From sequence record PV660463: 64,000 bases of DNA; one strand, given 5' to 3'. The position numbers and the translations under genes are program-made. This document shows positions 5,525 through 24,881 of this stretch, piece by piece; position 1 is the first letter of the stretch, and each line of letters begins with the position of its first letter. Source of the DNA: Escherichia phage LF82-41. Under the pieces are notes generated by a model that saw only the letters and a program-made list of their open reading frames with translations, was not told the origin of the DNA and searched no databases.

Positions 5525-8236
5525 TCAAAAATCAAACATATCGAACAGAGATGCTTTCTTCTCGTAATCGAGTTTCGCTGCTGATGTGAATCCTTCAAGT
5601 GGTTTAATAAATGTCTTCTCAAGGAGAACAGTGTAGTCCATCCAATGAAGTACGTCGTCTTTAATTAAATCTGTGATTTCAGTACCAGAAGGCCATGCGA
5701 TACATTTATCACCGAACGGGTTTCCTTCACGTAAAGGCAGAACATATACTTTTTCACCTTCTACAACTTGTGGAGCATCAATATTACCTTTGATAGCTCG
5801 GTTATATGTCAGAATTCCACGAATATGGAACGGGCATTTGGGACCAGGGAATCCACCTACATCATATTTAGCAATGTTATTCGCAGAAGATACCGACGCG
5901 ATGCTAATATAATTCAATTGACGGAATTCTTTTTCAAACTCTTTAAAATATTCTTGTAATGATTCTTCACCTTCCTGAAGCATACGACGAATACATTCCT
6001 TAAGAGCTTTCTGTACTGCTTTAGGAGTCGAAGATTTCTGAGTCTCTAGACCCATGATTTTGAGTTTAGGCTCAGCGTAACGAGTACCTTCCATATCCCA
6101 CACGTTTAATGCATAACGTTTCTTACCAGTCCAGAATCCGCCAATACCTTTAGAACCAAGCGGAGGACCAGCGATAGCTTCTCGGTCCATGAACATTAAG
6201 TGTTGTTTATTGTTCATGTATTCACACATTTCACGGAAACCTTTATCAATAGCTGGTTCCATACGTTCACGTGCGAACTTATCTAAGAAGTCTACCCAAT
6301 GGTTGGTATCACGGAATTTAGATTCACCAACCTTATCGATAATTTTATCAGCAGATACGTAAATAGAGTCTGTATCACCATAAAGAACGAAAGCTTCACC
6401 TTCTGTACCACAAACTTCATTCAGATATTCATTAACTTTACGTTCAATCCACTGTAAAGCCATTTGACCAAATGTTGTGATTGCAGTAGCATTACGCAAA
6501 TCATAATAACGGAACCAAACGTTACCAAGTGCACCATAAAGCGAGTTGATGAGCAATTTACGGTTAATTTGTGCAGTCATACCTGCAACTTCAGTACGTT
6601 GAGCTCTAAACAACATTTCATTAAGAGATTTAGCAGACAACTTTTTAATCTTTTCTTTAATCTCATCGCTGAAGTCGAAACGATAATCAACATCTAATGG
6701 TTCGTCAACAGAAAGATTAGGATTATGCAATGCCTCTTTAATTATTTCACCATTACGTTGAGCTGCAAGCATGTAACCTTTATGTTCTTTACGTTGATTA
6801 AAGACCTTAGTGATTTCAGTTGGAACTACACCATCACGGTCTTTATAATACATCATGCCGTTAGGAGAGCAACTGTACACATCTGAAGGACGTTCAGCGA
6901 TTGCGTTAATATAATCATGCAGTGGAGCTACTTTAAACGTTCCTGCTATTGTTTCCGGGCTAATATTCACTTGGCGAATAATACTTGGATACAGGGATGT
7001 AAGGTCGAAACTCATTACATATTTGTATCGATTTGGAATAGGTTCCTTAACAAAAGCACCTGGATAAGGTTGAACCGGGTGAGAACGACCTTGTGGAATC
7101 ACCTTGCTCTGCTCTTTAAGGCTATTAAAAATAATAGCATCCCATGTTTTAATTGGGCTAAACACAGATTGAATCTGTATCTTAGCATAATAACCCATGT
7201 CCAAACTCAAGTTGATGAACTGACGCTTAGCATCAATTTGCAATACACGATACACGTCGATAATGTTATAAGAAATATACCGTTGGTGATTGCTTTCACG
7301 AAGCTTAGAAATAGGGCCGTCATATTTCAGTTTACCAACATTCAATTCAAATTCTGAAATGTAATCCAGAGAATACGACGGTTGATTGGTAAAAGAGAAT
7401 TTTTTGTAAAGGTCAATGTAATCAAGAACAGAGATACCGAACATTGTAATGATTTCACGAGAACCATACATGTTTTCGATAACTTTAACACGAGTTTTAC
7501 GATGTGGTGATAAACGTTTCGCAGTAGATTCGCCAAAAATATTCTTGATTCGGTTATACACATATGGAATATCAAATGACTCAACGTTCCATCCAGTCAA
7601 AATGACAGGAGTTTTCTGTTGCCAGAAGTTGAGATATTCCATCAACAATTCTTTTTCGTTATCGAACGGCATATAAATGATTTTATCGATAATTTCAGAT
7701 GGAACTTCATCACCGCCTTGTTCTTGAAGCTTAGCCGCAATTTCGATAGACCATTCTTCTACATTACCATACGGAGAATTCAATAGATCAAATACGTAGA
7801 ACCTGTCGTCAATTGAGTCATAATGGGTGATAGCATCAATCGGATGTTTTGCTTGTGACGGCTCAGGGAACCCATCCGGAGATGTTACTTCGATGTCGAA
7901 GTTAGCCACACGAATTTTTGTATGGTCGTATTTGATTTCATAGTTATAAGTGTCAGACAAATACGCCAATTTGAAATCGTCCATGCCAAGTGCTTCAAGT
8001 CCGATATCTTCCATGCGTTTAATCCATTGGGAGGCATCACGCATATTAGCGAACAACTTACGAGTACACGGTTTACCGTAGATATCGAAATATTTCGTAG
8101 CCTGACTTTCTGGACAATGAGCAAACAGTGATGGTTTATATTCTACTTCACGAGTACGTTCACGGCCATTAGAATCGATGTAACGTTCAAAAATTGAATC
8201 ACCAATCTGTTCAACCGTTAAGTAAAATTCTTTCAT
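5525..8236 (-). CDS. 43: DNA polymerase (family B)
   Basis: 903 aa; N-terminus MKEFYLTVEQIGDSIFERYID..., exonuclease and polymerase motifs (DIE, YGDTDS, KILINSLYG); synteny with regA/62/44/45. Confidence 0.97.
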   Translation of the reverse strand: MKEFYLTVEQIGDSIFERYIDSNGRERTREVEYKPSLFAHCPESQATKYFDIYGKPCTRKLFANMRDASQWIKRMEDIGLEALGMDDFKLAYLSDTYNYEIKYDHTKIRVANFDIEVTSPDGFPEPSQAKHPIDAITHYDSIDDRFYVFDLLNSPYGNVEEWSIEIAAKLQEQGGDEVPSEIIDKIIYMPFDNEKELLMEYLNFWQQKTPVILTGWNVESFDIPYVYNRIKNIFGESTAKRLSPHRKTRVKVIENMYGSREIITMFGISVLDYIDLYKKFSFTNQPSYSLDYISEFELNVGKLKYDGPISKLRESNHQRYISYNIIDVYRVLQIDAKRQFINLSLDMGYYAKIQIQSVFSPIKTWDAIIFNSLKEQSKVIPQGRSHPVQPYPGAFVKEPIPNRYKYVMSFDLTSLYPSIIRQVNISPETIAGTFKVAPLHDYINAIAERPSDVYSCSPNGMMYYKDRDGVVPTEITKVFNQRKEHKGYMLAAQRNGEIIKEALHNPNLSVDEPLDVDYRFDFSDEIKEKIKKLSAKSLNEMLFRAQRTEVAGMTAQINRKLLINSLYGALGNVWFRYYDLRNATAITTFGQMALQWIERKVNEYLNEVCGTEGEAFVLYGDTDSIYVSADKIIDKVGESKFRDTNHWVDFLDKFARERMEPAIDKGFREMCEYMNNKQHLMFMDREAIAGPPLGSKGIGGFWTGKKRYALNVWDMEGTRYAEPKLKIMGLETQKSSTPKAVQKALKECIRRMLQEGEESLQEYFKEFEKEFRQLNYISIASVSSANNIAKYDVGGFPGPKCPFHIRGILTYNRAIKGNIDAPQVVEGEKVYVLPLREGNPFGDKCIAWPSGTEITDLIKDDVLHWMDYTVLLEKTFIKPLEGFTSAAKLDYEKKASLFDMFDF

Positions 8237-20317: not shown

Positions 20318-22131
20318 TGGTGTTTAACCCTATGCATGATTTCTTTATTTTTACCGAGATTAAATCCGCGTTCGTTCGGATTTCCTAAATAACCGCATGT
20401 TCTTCTTATGGTGTTCATCTTTTTAGGATCAGTTTCTCCGCAAACTGAACAAACAAATCCGTTTTCAGTAGGAGTCATTTCATGGGTACTTCCACATGTA
20501 AAACATTTATCCACTGGCATATTAACACCAAAATAATCTAAATGTTGTGCAGCATAATCCCAGACGGCCTCAAGTCCCTTTAAATTGTTTTTCATATCTG
20601 GAAGTTCAACATAAGAAATGTGACCACCTGTCGCAATGAAATGATATGGCGCTTCACGAGAAATCTTTTCAAACGGAGTAATATTTTCTTCTACTGAAAC
20701 GTGGAAACTGTTAGTGTACCAGCCTTTATCGGTAACATCTTTTACACTTCCATATTTTTCTGTATCGAGTTTACAGAAGCGATAACAAAGGTTTTCAGCA
20801 GGAGTAGAATACAAACTAAAAGCAAAACCAGTTCTTTCAGTCCACTGTTTAAGATGAGCATTCATTTTAGTTAAAATTTCTTGTCCAATATCACGACCAA
20901 CAAGAATATTCAATTCATGAATACCGATGTATCCTAAAGACACTGAACTTCTACCGTTTTTAAATAACTCAATTATATCGTCATCAGGTTTAAGACGAAC
21001 CCCGAATGCACCTTCTTGGTAAAGAATAGGAGCAACAGTCGCTTTAACTCCTTTTAAGGAACTAATTCTACATATCAAAGCTTCAAAACATAAATCCATT
21101 CGTTCATTGAATAATTCAACAAATTTCTGTTCATTGAACTGTGTTCCAATATAAGAATCTAATGCGATGCGAGGAAGATTCAGTGTTACAACACCGAGAT
21201 TATTACGTCCATCAAGAATTTCATTACCAGTCGAATCTTTCCATACGCTCAAGAAACTACGGCAGCCCATTGGAGAAACCGGAACTGAAGAACCAGTAAT
21301 AGCTTTATTATTCTTAACCGAAATAATGTCAGGATACATTCTTTTGCTTGCACATTCTAACGCAAGTTGTTTAATATCATAGTTCGGATCATCTTTATAA
21401 AGATTAACACCTTCTTCAACAAACATAACAAGTTTAGGAAAAATAGGAGTTATCCCATCACGACCAAGACCTTTAATGCGGTTTTTAAGAATTGCCTTCT
21501 GAATCATTCGTTCAGTCCAATCGGTTCCCGTACCAAATGTAATTGTTACAAAAGGCGTTTGTCCGTTTGAACTAAAGAGAGTATTTACTTCATATTCATA
21601 AGCTTGGAATGCATCGTATACGTCTTTTTCTGTTTTAGATTGAGCATAATTCAACGCATCAGCTATTTGCCATTTTTCTGCATCCTCAATATGTTTTGCA
21701 TAGGTGCGTTTAACATAAGGAGAAAGTACTTTATCTACATTAGCAAAAGTCGTTCCGCCGTATTGATGTGAAGCAACCTGTGCAGTAATTTGTGCCATAA
21801 TTGCAGTAGCAACACCAATCGATTTAGGCGTTTCAATTTGAGCATTGCCTAATTTAAATCCATTCTCAAGCATCCCCTTTAAATCGACTAAACAGCAATT
21901 AGTAAATGGAAGAGCAGGAGAATAATCAATATCATGCATATGAATGATTCCGCTTTCATGCGCATTCATAATAAAAGACGGGACCATATTTTTGGCAATG
22001 TGCTTAGACACAATACCAGCCATAAGGTCCCGTTGAGTTGGAAAAACACGAGAATCTTTATTAGCATTCTCGTTTAAAAGGTCTTTATTAGTTTTATGAA
22101 TTAATCCTTCAATTTCTTTTTCAATTTTCAT
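20314..22131 (-). CDS. nrdD: anaerobic ribonucleoside-triphosphate reductase, intron-less
   Basis: 605 aa; C-terminal CxxC...CxxC zinc site and glycyl-radical region; continuous ORF. Confidence 0.95.
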   Translation of the reverse strand: MKIEKEIEGLIHKTNKDLLNENANKDSRVFPTQRDLMAGIVSKHIAKNMVPSFIMNAHESGIIHMHDIDYSPALPFTNCCLVDLKGMLENGFKLGNAQIETPKSIGVATAIMAQITAQVASHQYGGTTFANVDKVLSPYVKRTYAKHIEDAEKWQIADALNYAQSKTEKDVYDAFQAYEYEVNTLFSSNGQTPFVTITFGTGTDWTERMIQKAILKNRIKGLGRDGITPIFPKLVMFVEEGVNLYKDDPNYDIKQLALECASKRMYPDIISVKNNKAITGSSVPVSPMGCRSFLSVWKDSTGNEILDGRNNLGVVTLNLPRIALDSYIGTQFNEQKFVELFNERMDLCFEALICRISSLKGVKATVAPILYQEGAFGVRLKPDDDIIELFKNGRSSVSLGYIGIHELNILVGRDIGQEILTKMNAHLKQWTERTGFAFSLYSTPAENLCYRFCKLDTEKYGSVKDVTDKGWYTNSFHVSVEENITPFEKISREAPYHFIATGGHISYVELPDMKNNLKGLEAVWDYAAQHLDYFGVNMPVDKCFTCGSTHEMTPTENGFVCSVCGETDPKKMNTIRRTCGYLGNPNERGFNLGKNKEIMHRVKHQ

Positions 22132-22601
22132 TTTAAACTCTTTCTAAGCTGCTTTTTGAATGAAGCTATTAATTGTGTTTTAGTATCAGATTCATTATAT
22201 TCAAATCCTCTTTGAAGCATCTCGGTCATCATTTCCTCTTTACCTAGTCTTGAGAACTCTTTAGTTTTGTCTGGAACAAAATTAGGATGGATATTATTAT
22301 CAGAATAATCTTGTTTCAAATAAGCAAGAAGAGCTTCAAGCCATTCGAGGTAATCAACGTTTTGACCTTTAAGACCAGAACGGTTGAACTTATGCTTCAT
22401 TTGACCTTCTGCTGCATTGCACAGGTTACATAGTAAACCACGAACCTTACCAGCTTTTGGCCCGTTTAATTCATGGTCGTGGTCAAGATGGTTACCTTGA
22501 ACATCAGGGTCTAATTCACGGTGGCAAATAGGACACTTACCGTTCTGTGCATCATAAAATTTTTGTTTTTCTTCTTTGTATAATTTGCCAGATAATAACA
22601 T
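22128..22601 (-). CDS. 49: endonuclease VII (Holliday junction resolvase)
   Basis: 157 aa, MLLSGKLYKEEKQKFYDAQNGKCPICHRELDPDVQGNHLDHDHELNGPKAGKVRGLLCNLCN matches T4 gp49. Confidence 0.95.
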   Translation of the reverse strand: MLLSGKLYKEEKQKFYDAQNGKCPICHRELDPDVQGNHLDHDHELNGPKAGKVRGLLCNLCNAAEGQMKHKFNRSGLKGQNVDYLEWLEALLAYLKQDYSDNNIHPNFVPDKTKEFSRLGKEEMMTEMLQRGFEYNESDTKTQLIASFKKQLRKSLK

Positions 22602-22631
22602 AATAAACCCTTACCTTAAATAGATAAGGGT

Positions 22632-22639
22632 ATTTATAA
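22632..22639 (-). promoter_or_regulatory. late promoter candidate (TATAAATA on minus strand) upstream of gene 49
   Basis: exact T4 late-promoter octamer about 30 nt upstream of gene 49 start. Confidence 0.5.
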
Positions 22640-22640
22640 T

Positions 22641-22820
22641 TTAGTAAACGTTATAAAAGCCTCGATGGAAACGCTTATACTGACGAATCATTCTTTTAGT
22701 AGGACGAGTTTCTGAAATAATTGAAGTCCTCATATTTGGATTGTTTGGGGCCCCAATCATAATAAATTTCCAAGATTTTTGCCCATTTTTTCTTTCACCA
22801 TAAAATAGTTCAGTTTTCAT
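22641..22820 (-). CDS. small basic protein (59 aa), paralog of 23245..23442; not in ORF track
   Basis: MKTELFYGERKNGQKSW...SETRPTKRMIRQYKRFHRGFYNVY; shares KNG..W..PN..RPTKR..R..KR.HR.FY..Y with the upstream paralog. Confidence 0.5.
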   Translation of the reverse strand: MKTELFYGERKNGQKSWKFIMIGAPNNPNMRTSIISETRPTKRMIRQYKRFHRGFYNVY

Positions 22821-22829
22821 AATAAACCT

Positions 22830-23243
22830 TTAACTTAAACGTCTTTCTAAGTATTCAATGTATTCCGCTGCGGCTTGCATCAGATTACCTTCATAACCGT
22901 CATTATTTTCTTGACCAGCTAATTTAGCTAAAGCATAAGAAATACGTTCACCTTCGAATTCGCCAAGTCCACCATCACAAACTACTTGGTCAATTTCTTC
23001 GAGTTCATCTATTGAATGGGATTCCCAGAAGCACCAAAGAGAAGTATCACGGTCATAGATGCAAAGTTTCTCACCTGTGTTCAACATCACTTCGATAATG
23101 CCATGGTCGCCATAACCATCTTCGGTAGTAGTACCAATTACCTTGAGGATTGTTCCTTTCTTTAATTCAGGAAACTTGACTTGTAGTTCTTCGTCTTCTT
23201 TAACAATCTTGAACCATTTACCGCGAGTTTCAGAAATATTCAT
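22830..23243 (-). CDS. hypothetical acidic protein (138 aa from internal Met)
   Basis: ORF 22830..23381; start set at MNISETRGKWF (ATG 23243) abutting stop of upstream gene. Confidence 0.55.
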   Translation of the reverse strand: MNISETRGKWFKIVKEDEELQVKFPELKKGTILKVIGTTTEDGYGDHGIIEVMLNTGEKLCIYDRDTSLWCFWESHSIDELEEIDQVVCDGGLGEFEGERISYALAKLAGQENNDGYEGNLMQAAAEYIEYLERRLS

Positions 23244-23244
23244 A

Positions 23245-23442
23245 TCAATATTCTCTATAAAAGTTACGATGAGAACGTTTAGCTTTGCGAAGCTGACGTT
23301 TAGTAGGACGAACTGTAAATGGTTGTCCAGAGAAAAAATTCGGATCGGTTTTAATAAGCAAATACCAATCATGCTTGCCATTTTTTAATAAACGGTACAA
23401 TAATTTAACTTGCATAATAATCTCTTCCCATTTCCATATCAA
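23245..23442 (-). CDS. small basic protein (65 aa), paralog of 22641..22820
   Basis: C-terminus FTVRPTKRQLRKAKRSHRNFYREY. Confidence 0.5.
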   Translation of the reverse strand: MIWKWEEIIMQVKLLYRLLKNGKHDWYLLIKTDPNFFSGQPFTVRPTKRQLRKAKRSHRNFYREY

Positions 23443-23543
23443 TTAATTCATTTATTGAAGGTTCATCATAACATGGTTCTTCGTCGTTGTAAACCGTTTC
23501 GACGTCTGGCTCGACAGTCTCCCATCGAGCAGAATACCACAGT

Positions 23544-23900
23544 TTAACCCCGGAGTTTATTGAGCTCTTCATAATCAATCCAGGATTCTAGCCCTGACGG
23601 CAGGTCACATTCAATGTTCCACAGAAGCTCTTCAATGGCTTGCAGGCGATTATATTCTTCAACAGTAATAGTAACCATTGGTGCAACCGGTTCTGCCTTT
23701 TTAACAATCATATCGTTCATCAGGATGTAAAGGTCATCACGAACGACAGTGTCGTTCCATCCCCATGATTTGGCTTCGTAAGCTAATGTTGAAGGTAGCA
23801 CATTTAAAACTTCAATAATAGTTGGAGCATCAGGACCAAGTTCATTGGCACAAACTTCGTATACATCCTGGAAATCTTTAAGATTTAATGAATATGTCAT
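23544..23900 (-). CDS. hypothetical protein (118 aa)
   Basis: ORF. Confidence 0.55.
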   Translation of the reverse strand: MTYSLNLKDFQDVYEVCANELGPDAPTIIEVLNVLPSTLAYEAKSWGWNDTVVRDDLYILMNDMIVKKAEPVAPMVTITVEEYNRLQAIEELLWNIECDLPSGLESWIDYEELNKLRG

Positions 23901-23918
23901 TTAAAATTTTCTCGCAGG

Positions 23919-24215
23919 TTATTGTTCTACCCATGAACAAGAGACTTCAAAATCAGGACCACCGTATTCCCAGTGATATTCACCAACAGGAATCCAGTCA
24001 CCGTGCTCGTTTTCTTCATAGTCCTCAGGCTCAAGGCCAACGAATCGCCATTGGACACCAATGATTCGATTACCCATCATTACTCGAAATTCGCCCCATG
24101 GATTATCGATAGCATACTGAATATCGTTCTTGGCACGAGAGCACATTTCTTGATATAATAAAGCTTCTAATTCACCCTGGTCATAAGGGCCAGGGAAAGT
24201 TAAATCAATACTCAT
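23919..24215 (-). CDS. hypothetical protein (98 aa)
   Basis: ORF. Confidence 0.55.
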   Translation of the reverse strand: MSIDLTFPGPYDQGELEALLYQEMCSRAKNDIQYAIDNPWGEFRVMMGNRIIGVQWRFVGLEPEDYEENEHGDWIPVGEYHWEYGGPDFEVSCSWVEQ

Positions 24216-24475
24216 TTAAAATATTCTCGTAGTTGGTCAAATCCACCAATGTGACTTCCGTCAGGAGCAAACACTTGAGGCATAGTCAATCCAACTTGTG
24301 ATTCACGTCCAAGCTTAACCAGAAGCTCAGCAATTTTCTCATCGTCGAACACACCTTTTTCCGGCATAACATTAATGAATTCGAATGGCTGTTTCTTAAC
24401 AGTCAGCAATCGTTTCGCATTATCACAATAAATGCATTTATGAATAGTAGAGTCATACCCGTACACTTTAAACAT
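24212..24475 (-). CDS. nrdC: glutaredoxin/thioredoxin
   Basis: MFKVYGYDSTIHKCIYCDNAKRLL... matches T4 NrdC; start at internal Met of ORF. Confidence 0.9.
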   Translation of the reverse strand: MFKVYGYDSTIHKCIYCDNAKRLLTVKKQPFEFINVMPEKGVFDDEKIAELLVKLGRESQVGLTMPQVFAPDGSHIGGFDQLREYFK

Positions 24476-24881
24476 TATTTTTCCTTTCATCGATTAAATA
24501 TGCAATGCCAAATACAATACATGTAATAAAACCTGTGATACAGATAGAAACCAACAACACTGTACCAAAGAACCAAATCAAGTTATCTTTAGTAGTTTGT
24601 TTGATATCCATCTCACGAATTTCTATAGCTATCGTATCACCTTTATTCAGAAGCGTATAAAACGATGGCGATACACGTCTGTCAAAAACTCGTCCTTGCT
24701 CATCTTTATAGACTGCAATAAATTCTAATTTAGAATATTTTCCTGTAGATTGGCCTGAGATTAATTCCACTACCTCCACAGGAATTACTTTAGTTTCCAT
24801 GTAAGTATTCTGGCTGTTCCAAATGAATGGAATAATAGCAAAAACTAAAGCTGTGATAAAACAACGAAGGCTATATCTCAT
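24468..24881 (-). CDS. membrane protein (2 predicted TM segments)
   Basis: 137 aa; hydrophobic N- and C-terminal segments. Confidence 0.55.
   Translation of the reverse strand: MRYSLRCFITALVFAIIPFIWNSQNTYMETKVIPVEVVELISGQSTGKYSKLEFIAVYKDEQGRVFDRRVSPSFYTLLNKGDTIAIEIREMDIKQTTKDNLIWFFGTVLLVSICITGFITCIVFGIAYLIDERKNNV

What the first reader, a model, noticed from the sequence alone, without database searches (positions are those of the whole stretch)
22641..23442. Pair of paralogous small basic proteins flanking an acidic gene downstream of endonuclease VII region
A 59-aa ORF (not in the supplied track) and a 65-aa ORF share K-N-G-x-x-x-W ... P-N ... R-P-T-K-R-x-x-R-x-x-K-R-x-H-R-x-F-Y-x-x-Y at the C-terminus. 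They bracket a 138-aa acidic protein. The basic tails look nucleic-acid binding. A duplicated basic pair with an acidic partner could be a small regulatory or anti-defence module.
Basis: seen in the sequence. Interest (0 to 1): 0.5.

Follow-up and report, generated by a model that had tools for sequence, protein, structure and literature searches.

The report
Two mini-TifA genes flanking pinA
The two small basic genes on either side of the phage's Lon-protease inhibitor gene (pinA) are real, conserved, shortened paralogues of TifA, a T4 RNA-binding protein that disarms the bacterial ToxIN defence, so they are probably extra RNA-binding counter-defence proteins and not partners of the acidic gene.

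Summary
On the minus strand of this RB69-like (Mosigvirus) window the order is gene 49.1, B (56 aa, 23245-23415), pinA (137 aa, 22830-23243), A (59 aa, 22641-22820), a hairpin, then gene 49. A and B are 37% identical (E = 1e-11). Both are under purifying selection (dN/dS about 0.02-0.3).

Both are members of Pfam DUF7279. I show that this family also contains T4 gp61.4, known as TifA, the experimentally characterised RNA-binding inhibitor of the ToxN toxin. TifA scores 2.3e-20 against DUF7279, and a profile-profile comparison gives 97% probability.

A and B keep the Pro-Thr helix cap and the K/R/R residues whose mutation abolishes TifA's RNA binding. AlphaFold2 gives TifA's three-stranded sheet plus basic helix. 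Part of the loop that contacts ToxN, and about 10 N-terminal residues, are missing.

The acidic gene is PinA, a known Lon inhibitor. It is not an obligate partner:
- T4 has pin without A or B.
- Some Dhakaviruses have A without pin.
- Two Mosigviruses carry a B::A chimera with pin deleted.

T4 PinA's C-terminal tail is a copied fragment of an A-type gene.

Verdict: new, untested members of a known family. The target is unknown. Interest is moderate.

The parts
23245..23415 (-). Gene B: 56-aa mini-TifA paralogue (DUF7279, phrog_3272). ATG at 23415, stop TGA at 23245-23247, 1 nt before the pin ATG. Overlaps the 3' end of 49.1 by 11 nt.
   Evidence: ORF. Annotated as a 171-nt CDS in WFL6982. Pfam DUF7279 1.1e-14. 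phrog_3272 5.8e-27. dN/dS 0.10-0.16 against KAW3E185 and F27. AF2 gives three strands plus helix 39-55, pLDDT 74.
23248..23310 (-). B residues 36-56: RPTKRQLRKAKRSHRNFYREY, a Pro-Thr-capped basic helix (putative RNA-binding surface).
   Evidence: Motif scan. Aligns to TifA 52-68. The TifA mutants P53A/T54A and K55A/R56A/R59A lose RNA binding (PMC10853763).
22830..23243 (-). pinA: 137-aa acidic inhibitor of host Lon protease. A neighbour, not a member of the paralogue family.
   Evidence: Pfam Inhibitor_I24 1e-48, profile positions 2-136 of 136. phrog_2167 1.5e-51. Annotated as pin in ATK47. pI 4.43.
22641..22820 (-). Gene A: 59-aa mini-TifA paralogue (DUF7279, phrog_3272; RB69ORF087c / RB32ORF078c type). 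A variably present cassette placed just before the gene 49 hairpin.
   Evidence: ORF. Pfam DUF7279 4.9e-13. phrog_3272 8e-29. dN/dS 0.02-0.3, for example 13 synonymous against 3 non-synonymous changes versus WFL6982. AF2 gives three strands plus helix 42-58, pLDDT 87. Clean indel in FP43 and KAW3E185.
22644..22706 (-). A residues 39-59: RPTKRMIRQYKRFHRGFYNVY, a Pro-Thr-capped basic helix. Its last codons (CTTTTATA, Phe-Tyr) are the crossover point seen in the natural B::A chimeras.
22607..22631 (-). Hairpin between A and gene 49. Its 3' arm contains the gene 49 Shine-Dalgarno sequence. It marks the 3' boundary of the cassette.
   Evidence: Terminator-like scan. RNA fold -13.6 kcal/mol, z = -2.85. 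Annotated as a terminator in related records. Conserved in T4, RB32 and FP43.
22128..22601 (-). Gene 49 (endonuclease VII): the constant downstream neighbour of A-type genes in three genera.
23405..23572 (-). Gene 49.1 homologue (55 aa, acidic): the upstream neighbour of B.
   Evidence: phrog_2382 2.8e-26. Annotation in ATK47 and WFL6982.

Best explanation
A and B are two anciently diverged, shortened paralogues of TifA (T4 gp61.4). TifA is the small phage RNA-binding protein that neutralises the ToxN endoribonuclease of the type III toxin-antitoxin defence ToxIN.

Shown here:
- Both belong to the same Pfam family as TifA (DUF7279).
- Both are real genes under purifying selection, translated from the tightly packed minus-strand operon that runs from nrdC to gene 49.
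- Both keep every residue known to be needed for TifA's RNA binding: the Pro-Thr helix cap and K, R/K, R.
- Both are predicted to fold as a three-stranded beta-sheet packed on a C-terminal basic helix.

Inferred:
- They bind RNA through that helix.
- Like TifA, they neutralise an RNA-directed host defence effector by holding it on bulk RNA. Target specificity would be set by the beta-sheet and the loop.
- That region is shorter than TifA's and unlike it, and A and B differ there from each other. Their targets are therefore probably not the ToxN variants TifA handles, and may differ between A and B.

PinA between them is an independent Lon inhibitor. The adjacency makes a small cluster of counter-defence-type genes, not a three-part machine.

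A side effect of the pair is that they act as direct repeats. Recombination across their tails has deleted pin in some phages. A copy of an A-type tail has been grafted onto PinA in T4-type phages.
For: Family membership:
- A and B hit Pfam DUF7279 at 49.2 and 54.5 bits (cutoff 24.5), covering the full-length model.
- T4 TifA hits the same model at 2.3e-20. The RB69, vB_EcoM_005 and PM2 TifA proteins hit it at 2.4e-17 to 5.7e-20.
- The PHROG matches are reciprocal. TifA hits phrog_3272 at 5.2e-8. A and B hit TifA's phrog_2375 at 2.8e-3 and 2.2e-5.
- hhalign of the A/B family against the published TifA panel gives probability 97.1%, E = 4.8e-11, over 39 columns from the conserved Trp to the end of the helix.
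- The joint alignment is colinear from Met1.

Functional residues:
- TifA P53A/T54A and K55A/R56A/R59A lose RNA co-purification and ToxN neutralisation (PMC10853763).
- The equivalent R-P-T-K-(R/K)-x-x-R is invariant in all A and B homologues.

Fold:
- The AF2 models of A (pLDDT 87) and B (pLDDT 74) both give strand-strand-strand-helix.
- This matches the published description of TifA.

Real genes:
- dN/dS is 0.02-0.3 for A and 0.10-0.16 for B.
- The genes are tightly coupled in the operon.
- They are annotated in related genomes.

Independence from pin.

Multi-copy family: WFL6982, which is 97% identical to this locus, carries canonical tifA as well as A and B.
Against: - No experiment exists on any A- or B-type protein. 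RNA binding and anti-defence activity are inferred from homology only.
- The N-terminal ~10 residues and 4-7 residues of the loop that carries TifA residue 41 (a ToxN contact) are missing.
- Even full-length TifA homologues from other phages failed to neutralise any ToxN or TenpN tested. Family membership therefore does not predict a target.
- TifA binds ssDNA and dsDNA in vitro as well as it binds RNA, so the in vivo ligand of A and B is open.
- A and B have their own invariant H-R-x-F-Y near the C-terminus. T4 and RB69 TifA lack it, and it is unexplained.
- The AF2 model of B has only moderate confidence and rests on 4 sequences.
Confidence: 0.6

Rival explanations
1. A and B are general RNA- or ribosome-binding modulators of gene expression during infection. 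They might act on mRNA stability, on translation, or on 16S rRNA. They would not be inhibitors of a host defence effector.
For: The same homology and basic helix as above. TifA itself binds RNA non-specifically and enriches 16S rRNA. Many TifA homologues have no known toxin target. A always sits directly before the regulatory hairpin of gene 49.
Against: A is dispensable and variably present among near-identical phages. That pattern is typical of accessory host-range or counter-defence genes rather than core expression factors. The only characterised family member is a counter-defence protein.
Confidence: 0.2
2. A and B work together with PinA as a Lon-directed module. They might act as decoy substrates or adaptors that deliver PinA to Lon.
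For: Adjacency to pin or pin-like genes in Mosigvirus, Tequatrovirus and most Dhakavirus loci. T4 and RB32 PinA carry a C-terminal tail (MIQQYKRLHQMFYNT) copied from an A-type gene, lying outside the Inhibitor_I24 domain. The charges are opposite.
Against: Every combination occurs in nature: pin alone (T4), A-type alone (L012), B and pin without A, and a B::A chimera without pin. The constant neighbour of A is gene 49, not pin. The tail on T4 PinA lacks the RPTK part. The tails lack the terminal histidine that defines the SulA-type Lon degron.
Confidence: 0.1
3. The pair is a decaying duplication or a recombination scar with no function of its own. Alternatively, the similarity reflects duplicated regulatory DNA.
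For: The locus is a recombination hot spot, with chimeras, indels and grafted tails.
Against: There is strong purifying selection on both genes. The frames are intact in hundreds of genomes across three genera. DNA similarity is lower than protein-motif conservation and ends at the stop codons. The 37% identity implies an old duplication that has been retained.
Confidence: 0.03

Closest known systems
TifA (T4 gp61.4; RB69 gp61.4), the ToxN inhibitory factor A (Srikant et al. 2022, PMC9391042; Guegler et al. 2023, PMC10853763)
   Same: Same Pfam family (DUF7279). Same predicted three-stranded sheet plus C-terminal basic helix. Identical Pro-Thr cap and K, R, R RNA-binding residues. Small, basic, T-even accessory genes in the leftward-transcribed part of the genome. 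Variably present among close relatives.
   Different: 56-59 aa against 67-98 aa. They lack about 10 N-terminal residues, the extra FKALIA segment, 4-7 loop residues including the residue-41 ToxN contact, and the C-terminal extension. They carry their own invariant H-R-x-F-Y. They lie at the pin/gene 49 locus, not next to dmd. They are present in addition to canonical tifA in some genomes. No A- or B-type sequence is in the published test panel.
PinA (T4 pin), inhibitor of host Lon protease, Pfam Inhibitor_I24
   Same: It is the gene lying between A and B in this window. T4-type PinA ends with 15-17 residues copied from an A-type gene tail.
   Different: An unrelated acidic fold with a different activity (Lon ATPase/protease inhibition). 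The Mosigvirus PinA here has no such tail. It is not homologous to A or B over its domain.
Dmd (T4 gp61.5), a phage antitoxin against RnlA/LsoA
   Same: Another small T-even protein that directly neutralises a host endoribonuclease toxin. It is the neighbour of canonical tifA.
   Different: No sequence relationship (phrog_2102). It binds the toxin directly, with no RNA-binding helix.
Uncharacterised 54-75 aa proteins of other T4-like phages (Salmonella S16 M1HDH2, Citrobacter Merlin A0A0K1LNJ9, Serratia CBH8)
   Same: The best structural matches to the A and B models (TM up to 0.83-0.90, Foldseek probability 0.99-1.0). They are similar in size.
   Different: 22-33% identity. Function unknown. 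Their genomic position was not examined.

Membership tests
Pfam DUF7279 (PF23945), the TifA family | Score above the curated gathering threshold of the family model | tested here: met
   A scores 49.2 bits and B 54.5 bits against a cutoff of 24.5, both covering model positions 1-53 of 53. T4 TifA scores 72.7 bits on the same model. RB69, vB_EcoM_005 and PM2 TifA score 63-71 bits.
TifA family | Conserved Pro-Thr motif capping a C-terminal helix, immediately followed by a cluster of basic residues (the feature the authors use to define homologues) | tested here: met
   R-P-T-K-(R/K)-x-x-R-x-x-K-R is invariant in all A- and B-type sequences. It aligns to TifA P53, T54, K55, R56 and R59.
TifA family | [quoted passage not shown] | tested here: met
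   AF2 model of A: E2-9, E15-24, E27-36, H42-58, pLDDT 87. AF2 model of B: E3-9, E15-24, E27-33, H39-55, pLDDT 74. The comparison is with the published description of TifA. There was no superposition, because a TifA model could not be built here.
TifA family | A loop of about 20 residues carrying the ToxN-contact position 41 | tested here: not met
   The loop is 4-7 residues shorter and unrelated in sequence. The authors note that this loop is not conserved across the wider family either.
TifA family | Gene lies next to dmd in the 41-61 region | tested here: not met
   A and B lie between 49.1 and gene 49. The dmd locus lies about 5 kb beyond the window's left end. No third copy is in the window.
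TifA family | Binds RNA through the basic helix | not testable with these tools
   Inferred only, from conservation of the mutated residues.
TifA family | Neutralises ToxN and allows growth on toxIN+ hosts | not testable with these tools
   No A- or B-type protein was in the published panel (Table S2). Several full-length homologues were inactive on all the toxins tried.
PinA / Inhibitor_I24 (for the middle gene) | Full-length match to Pfam PF10465 above threshold | tested here: met
   165.2 bits against a cutoff of 27, model positions 2-136 of 136.
SulA-type C-terminal Lon H-degron (considered for the HRxFY tails) | Terminal histidine preceded by hydrophobic residues (x-L/I-L/I/V-H) | tested here: not met
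   A ends ...FYNVY, B ends ...FYREY and T4 PinA ends ...FYNT. The terminal His is the principal determinant of the degron (PMC11986505).

The most novel reading that the evidence does not exclude
A and B are specificity-diverged mini-TifAs, each neutralising a different RNA-targeting defence effector that canonical TifA does not cover. Candidates are other type III toxins such as TenpN- or CptN-like RNases, or other abortive-infection RNases. With PinA blocking Lon-dependent activation of type II toxin-antitoxin systems, the 49.1-to-49 stretch of T-even phages would then be a compact, recombination-shuffled anti-toxin-antitoxin island. In addition, the TifA-derived tail on T4 PinA could be a functional graft giving PinA an RNA- or Lon-tethering handle.
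Probability: 0.3. Interest if true: 0.6.

Novelty: new member of a known kind. Interest (0 to 1): 0.42.

Why it matters
TifA is one of very few phage counter-defences known to work by trapping a toxin on RNA, and only its dmd-linked copy has been studied.

Many T-even coliphages carry one or two extra, shorter family members at a second locus. These copies have the RNA-binding residues intact and the specificity region changed. They are ready-made candidates for new toxin or defence targets, and they form a natural series for working out which part of TifA sets target specificity.

The result also gives a name and a testable function to genes annotated as 'hypothetical protein' in hundreds of therapeutic-candidate phage genomes.

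It explains two structural oddities at this locus:
- Natural pin deletions arose by B x A recombination.
- The C-terminal tail of T4 PinA is non-homologous to the rest of the protein, which may matter for interpreting the biochemistry done on T4 PinA.

Tried and rejected
- **Duplicated promoter or UTR.** Rejected. DNA identity is only 71% over 56 nt, it is confined to codons, and it ends at the stop codons.
- **Obligate module with the acidic gene.** Rejected on comparative synteny.
- **Lon degron mimicry by the H-R-x-F-Y tails (SulA-like).** Recalled from memory, then checked against PMC11986505. The defining terminal histidine is absent.
- **Exhaustive HMM search of 1.8 billion representatives with an A/B profile.** It found only 2 hits. 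The short query cannot reach TifA at library-wide E-values. The link came instead from a weak locus hit in IMG/VR (L019) and from Pfam and PHROG cross-hits.
- **Sequence search of PDB.** Nothing meaningful.
- **Foldseek against viral models.** It returned only other uncharacterised small T4-like proteins.
- **NCBIfam.** No model.
- **Literature.** No paper mentions DUF7279, RB69ORF087c or RB32ORF078c.
- **A third copy in the window.** None found.
- **T4 gp49.2 as a relative of the 118-aa upstream protein.** By eye, its translated sequence shows no resemblance to that protein; no comparison was run.

Full report
**What is there.** The window is a Mosigvirus (RB69-like T-even phage). Positions 22100-24500 match phages ATK47 and ATK48 at 98% and WFL6982 at 97%. 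On the minus strand the genes run in this order:
- nrdC (24212-24490)
- a 98-aa ORF
- a 118-aa ORF
- 49.1 (23405-23572)
- B (23245-23415)
- pin (22830-23243)
- A (22641-22820)
- a hairpin (22607-22631)
- gene 49, endonuclease VII (22128-22601)
- nrdD

The packing is tight. 49.1 overlaps B by 11 nt. B's TGA lies 1 nt before the pin ATG. Annotated relatives and the alignment with A point to the ATG at 23415, which gives 56 aa.

A and B are 37% identical over their full length (E = 1e-11), and each is the other's only significant match in the window. The DNA of the tails is only 71% identical, and the likeness ends at the stop codons. The similarity is therefore maintained at the protein level.

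Both frames are under purifying selection.
- For A, the window against WFL6982 shows 13 synonymous and 3 non-synonymous changes (dN/dS 0.04). Comparisons across genera give 0.1-0.3.
- For B, the window against KAW3E185 shows 15 synonymous and 8 non-synonymous changes (dN/dS 0.10).

A and B have pI 10.8. The middle protein has pI 4.4.

**What they are.** Both match Pfam DUF7279 well above threshold and both fall in PHROG 3272. An IMG/VR locus picked up with the family motif (L019) turned out to be the gene next to dmd, between genes 41 and 61 of a T4-like phage. The T4 gene at that position is 61.4. Its product reads ...FAVRPTKRQIRQCKRYFRK....

Gene 61.4 is tifA. TifA is the inhibitor of the ToxN endoribonuclease of the type III toxin-antitoxin system ToxIN (PMC9391042; PMC10853763).

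The evidence that A and B are TifA relatives:
- T4 TifA hits DUF7279 at 2.3e-20, and three other published TifA homologues hit it at 1e-17 to 1e-20. DUF7279 is therefore the TifA family.
- TifA also hits A and B's PHROG at 5e-8.
- A profile-profile comparison of the A/B family with the published TifA panel gives 97.1% probability, E = 4.8e-11.
- A joint alignment is colinear from the first residue.

**Which functional features are kept.** In TifA the Pro-Thr pair caps a C-terminal basic helix. The P53A/T54A and K55A/R56A/R59A variants lose RNA co-purification, ToxN binding and ToxN neutralisation. The corresponding R-P-T-K-(R/K)-x-x-R is invariant in every A- and B-type sequence I collected.

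AlphaFold2 predicts three beta-strands followed by one long helix for both proteins. The pLDDT is 87 for A and 74 for B. This is the architecture the TifA authors describe.

What is missing:
- About 10 N-terminal residues.
- An extra segment present in T4 and RB69 TifA.
- 4-7 residues of the loop that carries residue 41, a ToxN contact.

The authors already observed that this loop varies between clades. They also found that homologues from other phages neutralise none of the toxins they tested. Their panel contains only 67-98 aa forms, none of the A or B type. A and B also share their own invariant H-R-x-F-Y near the C-terminus, which is unexplained.

**The relation to the acidic gene.** The middle gene is PinA, the Lon protease inhibitor (Inhibitor_I24, 1e-48). 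Reviews list PinA as an anti-toxin-antitoxin strategy, because Lon degrades antitoxins (PMC10286901). The neighbourhood is therefore thematically coherent.

The genes are separable, however:
- T4 has pin only.
- RB32 has pin plus an A-type gene.
- FP43, KAW3E185 and F27 have B plus pin.
- A QL01-type Dhakavirus has an A-type gene and no pin.
- JS98-type phages have an A-type gene after a split, permuted pin.

In all 17 loci with an A-type gene whose downstream sequence held a gene 49 match, that gene lies directly before the gene 49 hairpin.

**Recombination at the locus.** In phiE142 and SHSML-52-1 a single gene reads as B up to ...CATCGTAACTTTTATA and then as A (ACGTTTACTAA plus the hairpin and gene 49). 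The crossover lies in the 8-nt CTTTTATA shared by the two Phe-Tyr codons. It removed 604 bp, including pin.

In RB32 and T4, PinA is 161 aa. The Inhibitor_I24 domain ends at residue 141. The last 15-17 residues (MI(R/Q)QYKRLHQMFYNT) are a copy, about 87% identical at DNA level, of the 3' end of the A-type gene.
- In RB32 the copy is bracketed by a 22-bp direct repeat (AACTCAAAATTCTTTTTCTGAC), and the intact A-type gene follows.
- In T4 the tail is joined directly to the hairpin.

The A cassette itself is a clean indel among Mosigviruses.

**Copy number.** The canonical tifA locus lies about 5 kb beyond the left end of the window, so I cannot say whether this phage has it. WFL6982 (97% identical here) carries tifA, A and B. 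ATK47 (98%) has no tifA beside dmd. About 69 records carry RB69-type tifA, about 145 carry B and 54 carry Mosigvirus-type A.

**Mechanism and confidence.**

| Claim | Basis | Confidence |
|---|---|---|
| Membership of the TifA/DUF7279 family | Shown | about 0.95 |
| A and B are real, selected genes | Shown | not scored separately |
| Nucleic-acid (probably RNA) binding through the capped basic helix | Strong inference | about 0.65 |
| A counter-defence role by trapping an RNA-directed effector on RNA, with a target other than TifA's | Reasoned guess | about 0.4 |

The main rival is a general RNA- or ribosome-binding role. A Lon or PinA partnership is unlikely. A SulA-like degron reading of the tails fails its defining test, the terminal histidine.

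**Novelty.** The family is catalogued in Pfam and PHROGs, and the genes are annotated as hypothetical proteins. I found no paper that mentions DUF7279 or these ORFs, and the two TifA papers do not discuss paralogues.

The finding is therefore a new pair of members, a short subfamily at a second locus, of a known kind. Two small evolutionary by-products come with it: pin deletion by B x A crossover, and the TifA-derived tail of T4 PinA. Interest is moderate. It is directly testable and useful to counter-defence researchers, but it is not a new principle.

Noticed in passing
window 22607-22631 (-): A 10-bp hairpin (ACCCTTATCT / AGGTAAGGGT) whose 3' arm contains the gene 49 Shine-Dalgarno sequence, followed by TTATTATG. 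It is conserved in T4, RB32 and FP43. It looks like the translational/termination control element described for T4 gene 49 (that attribution is from memory, not checked).
   Followed up: partly
window 23544-23900 (-): The 118-aa ORF is composite. Its C-terminal ~55 aa equal a free-standing 56-aa gene in RB32 (ORF081c), in phrog_3402 labelled 'antitoxin from a toxin-antitoxin system'. It has a weak likeness to the T7 Gp5.9 RecBCD inhibitor (Pfam 0.016; phrog_6234 9e-4). It may be another counter-defence candidate in the same operon.
   Followed up: partly
L005 (JS98) 1023-1504; also L013, L015, L017: In JS98-type Dhakaviruses pin is split and permuted. The gene for the C-terminal half (orf78, PinA profile positions 92-145) precedes the gene for the N-terminal half (orf77, positions 5-75).
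   Followed up: partly
L003 (T4) 2898-2954; L004 (RB32) 1408-1464: T4 and RB32 PinA residues ~145-161 lie outside the Inhibitor_I24 domain. They are a copy, about 87% identical at DNA level, of the 3' end of the A-type mini-TifA gene. In RB32 the copy is bracketed by a 22-bp direct repeat.
   Followed up: yes
L007 (phiE142) 1501-1671; L023 (SHSML-52-1) 1501-1671: Natural B::A chimeric genes. The crossover lies in the shared CTTTTATA. 604 bp, including all of pin, have been deleted.
   Followed up: yes
L021 (ATK47) 6500-8100: ATK47, the closest relative of the window, has no tifA next to dmd. A 122-aa lipoprotein-like gene follows dmd instead. WFL6982 and RB69 do have tifA, so canonical tifA is also variably present in Mosigvirus.
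   Followed up: partly
window 22830-23381 (-): The mechanical ORF list extends pin to 183 aa from an upstream ATG that overlaps B in another frame. The Pfam match and the annotations show the true start at 23243 (137 aa).
   Followed up: yes
L012 (QL01-type Dhakavirus) 2365-2686: 49.1 is followed directly by the A-type gene and then by gene 49, with no pin-like gene at all.
   Followed up: no
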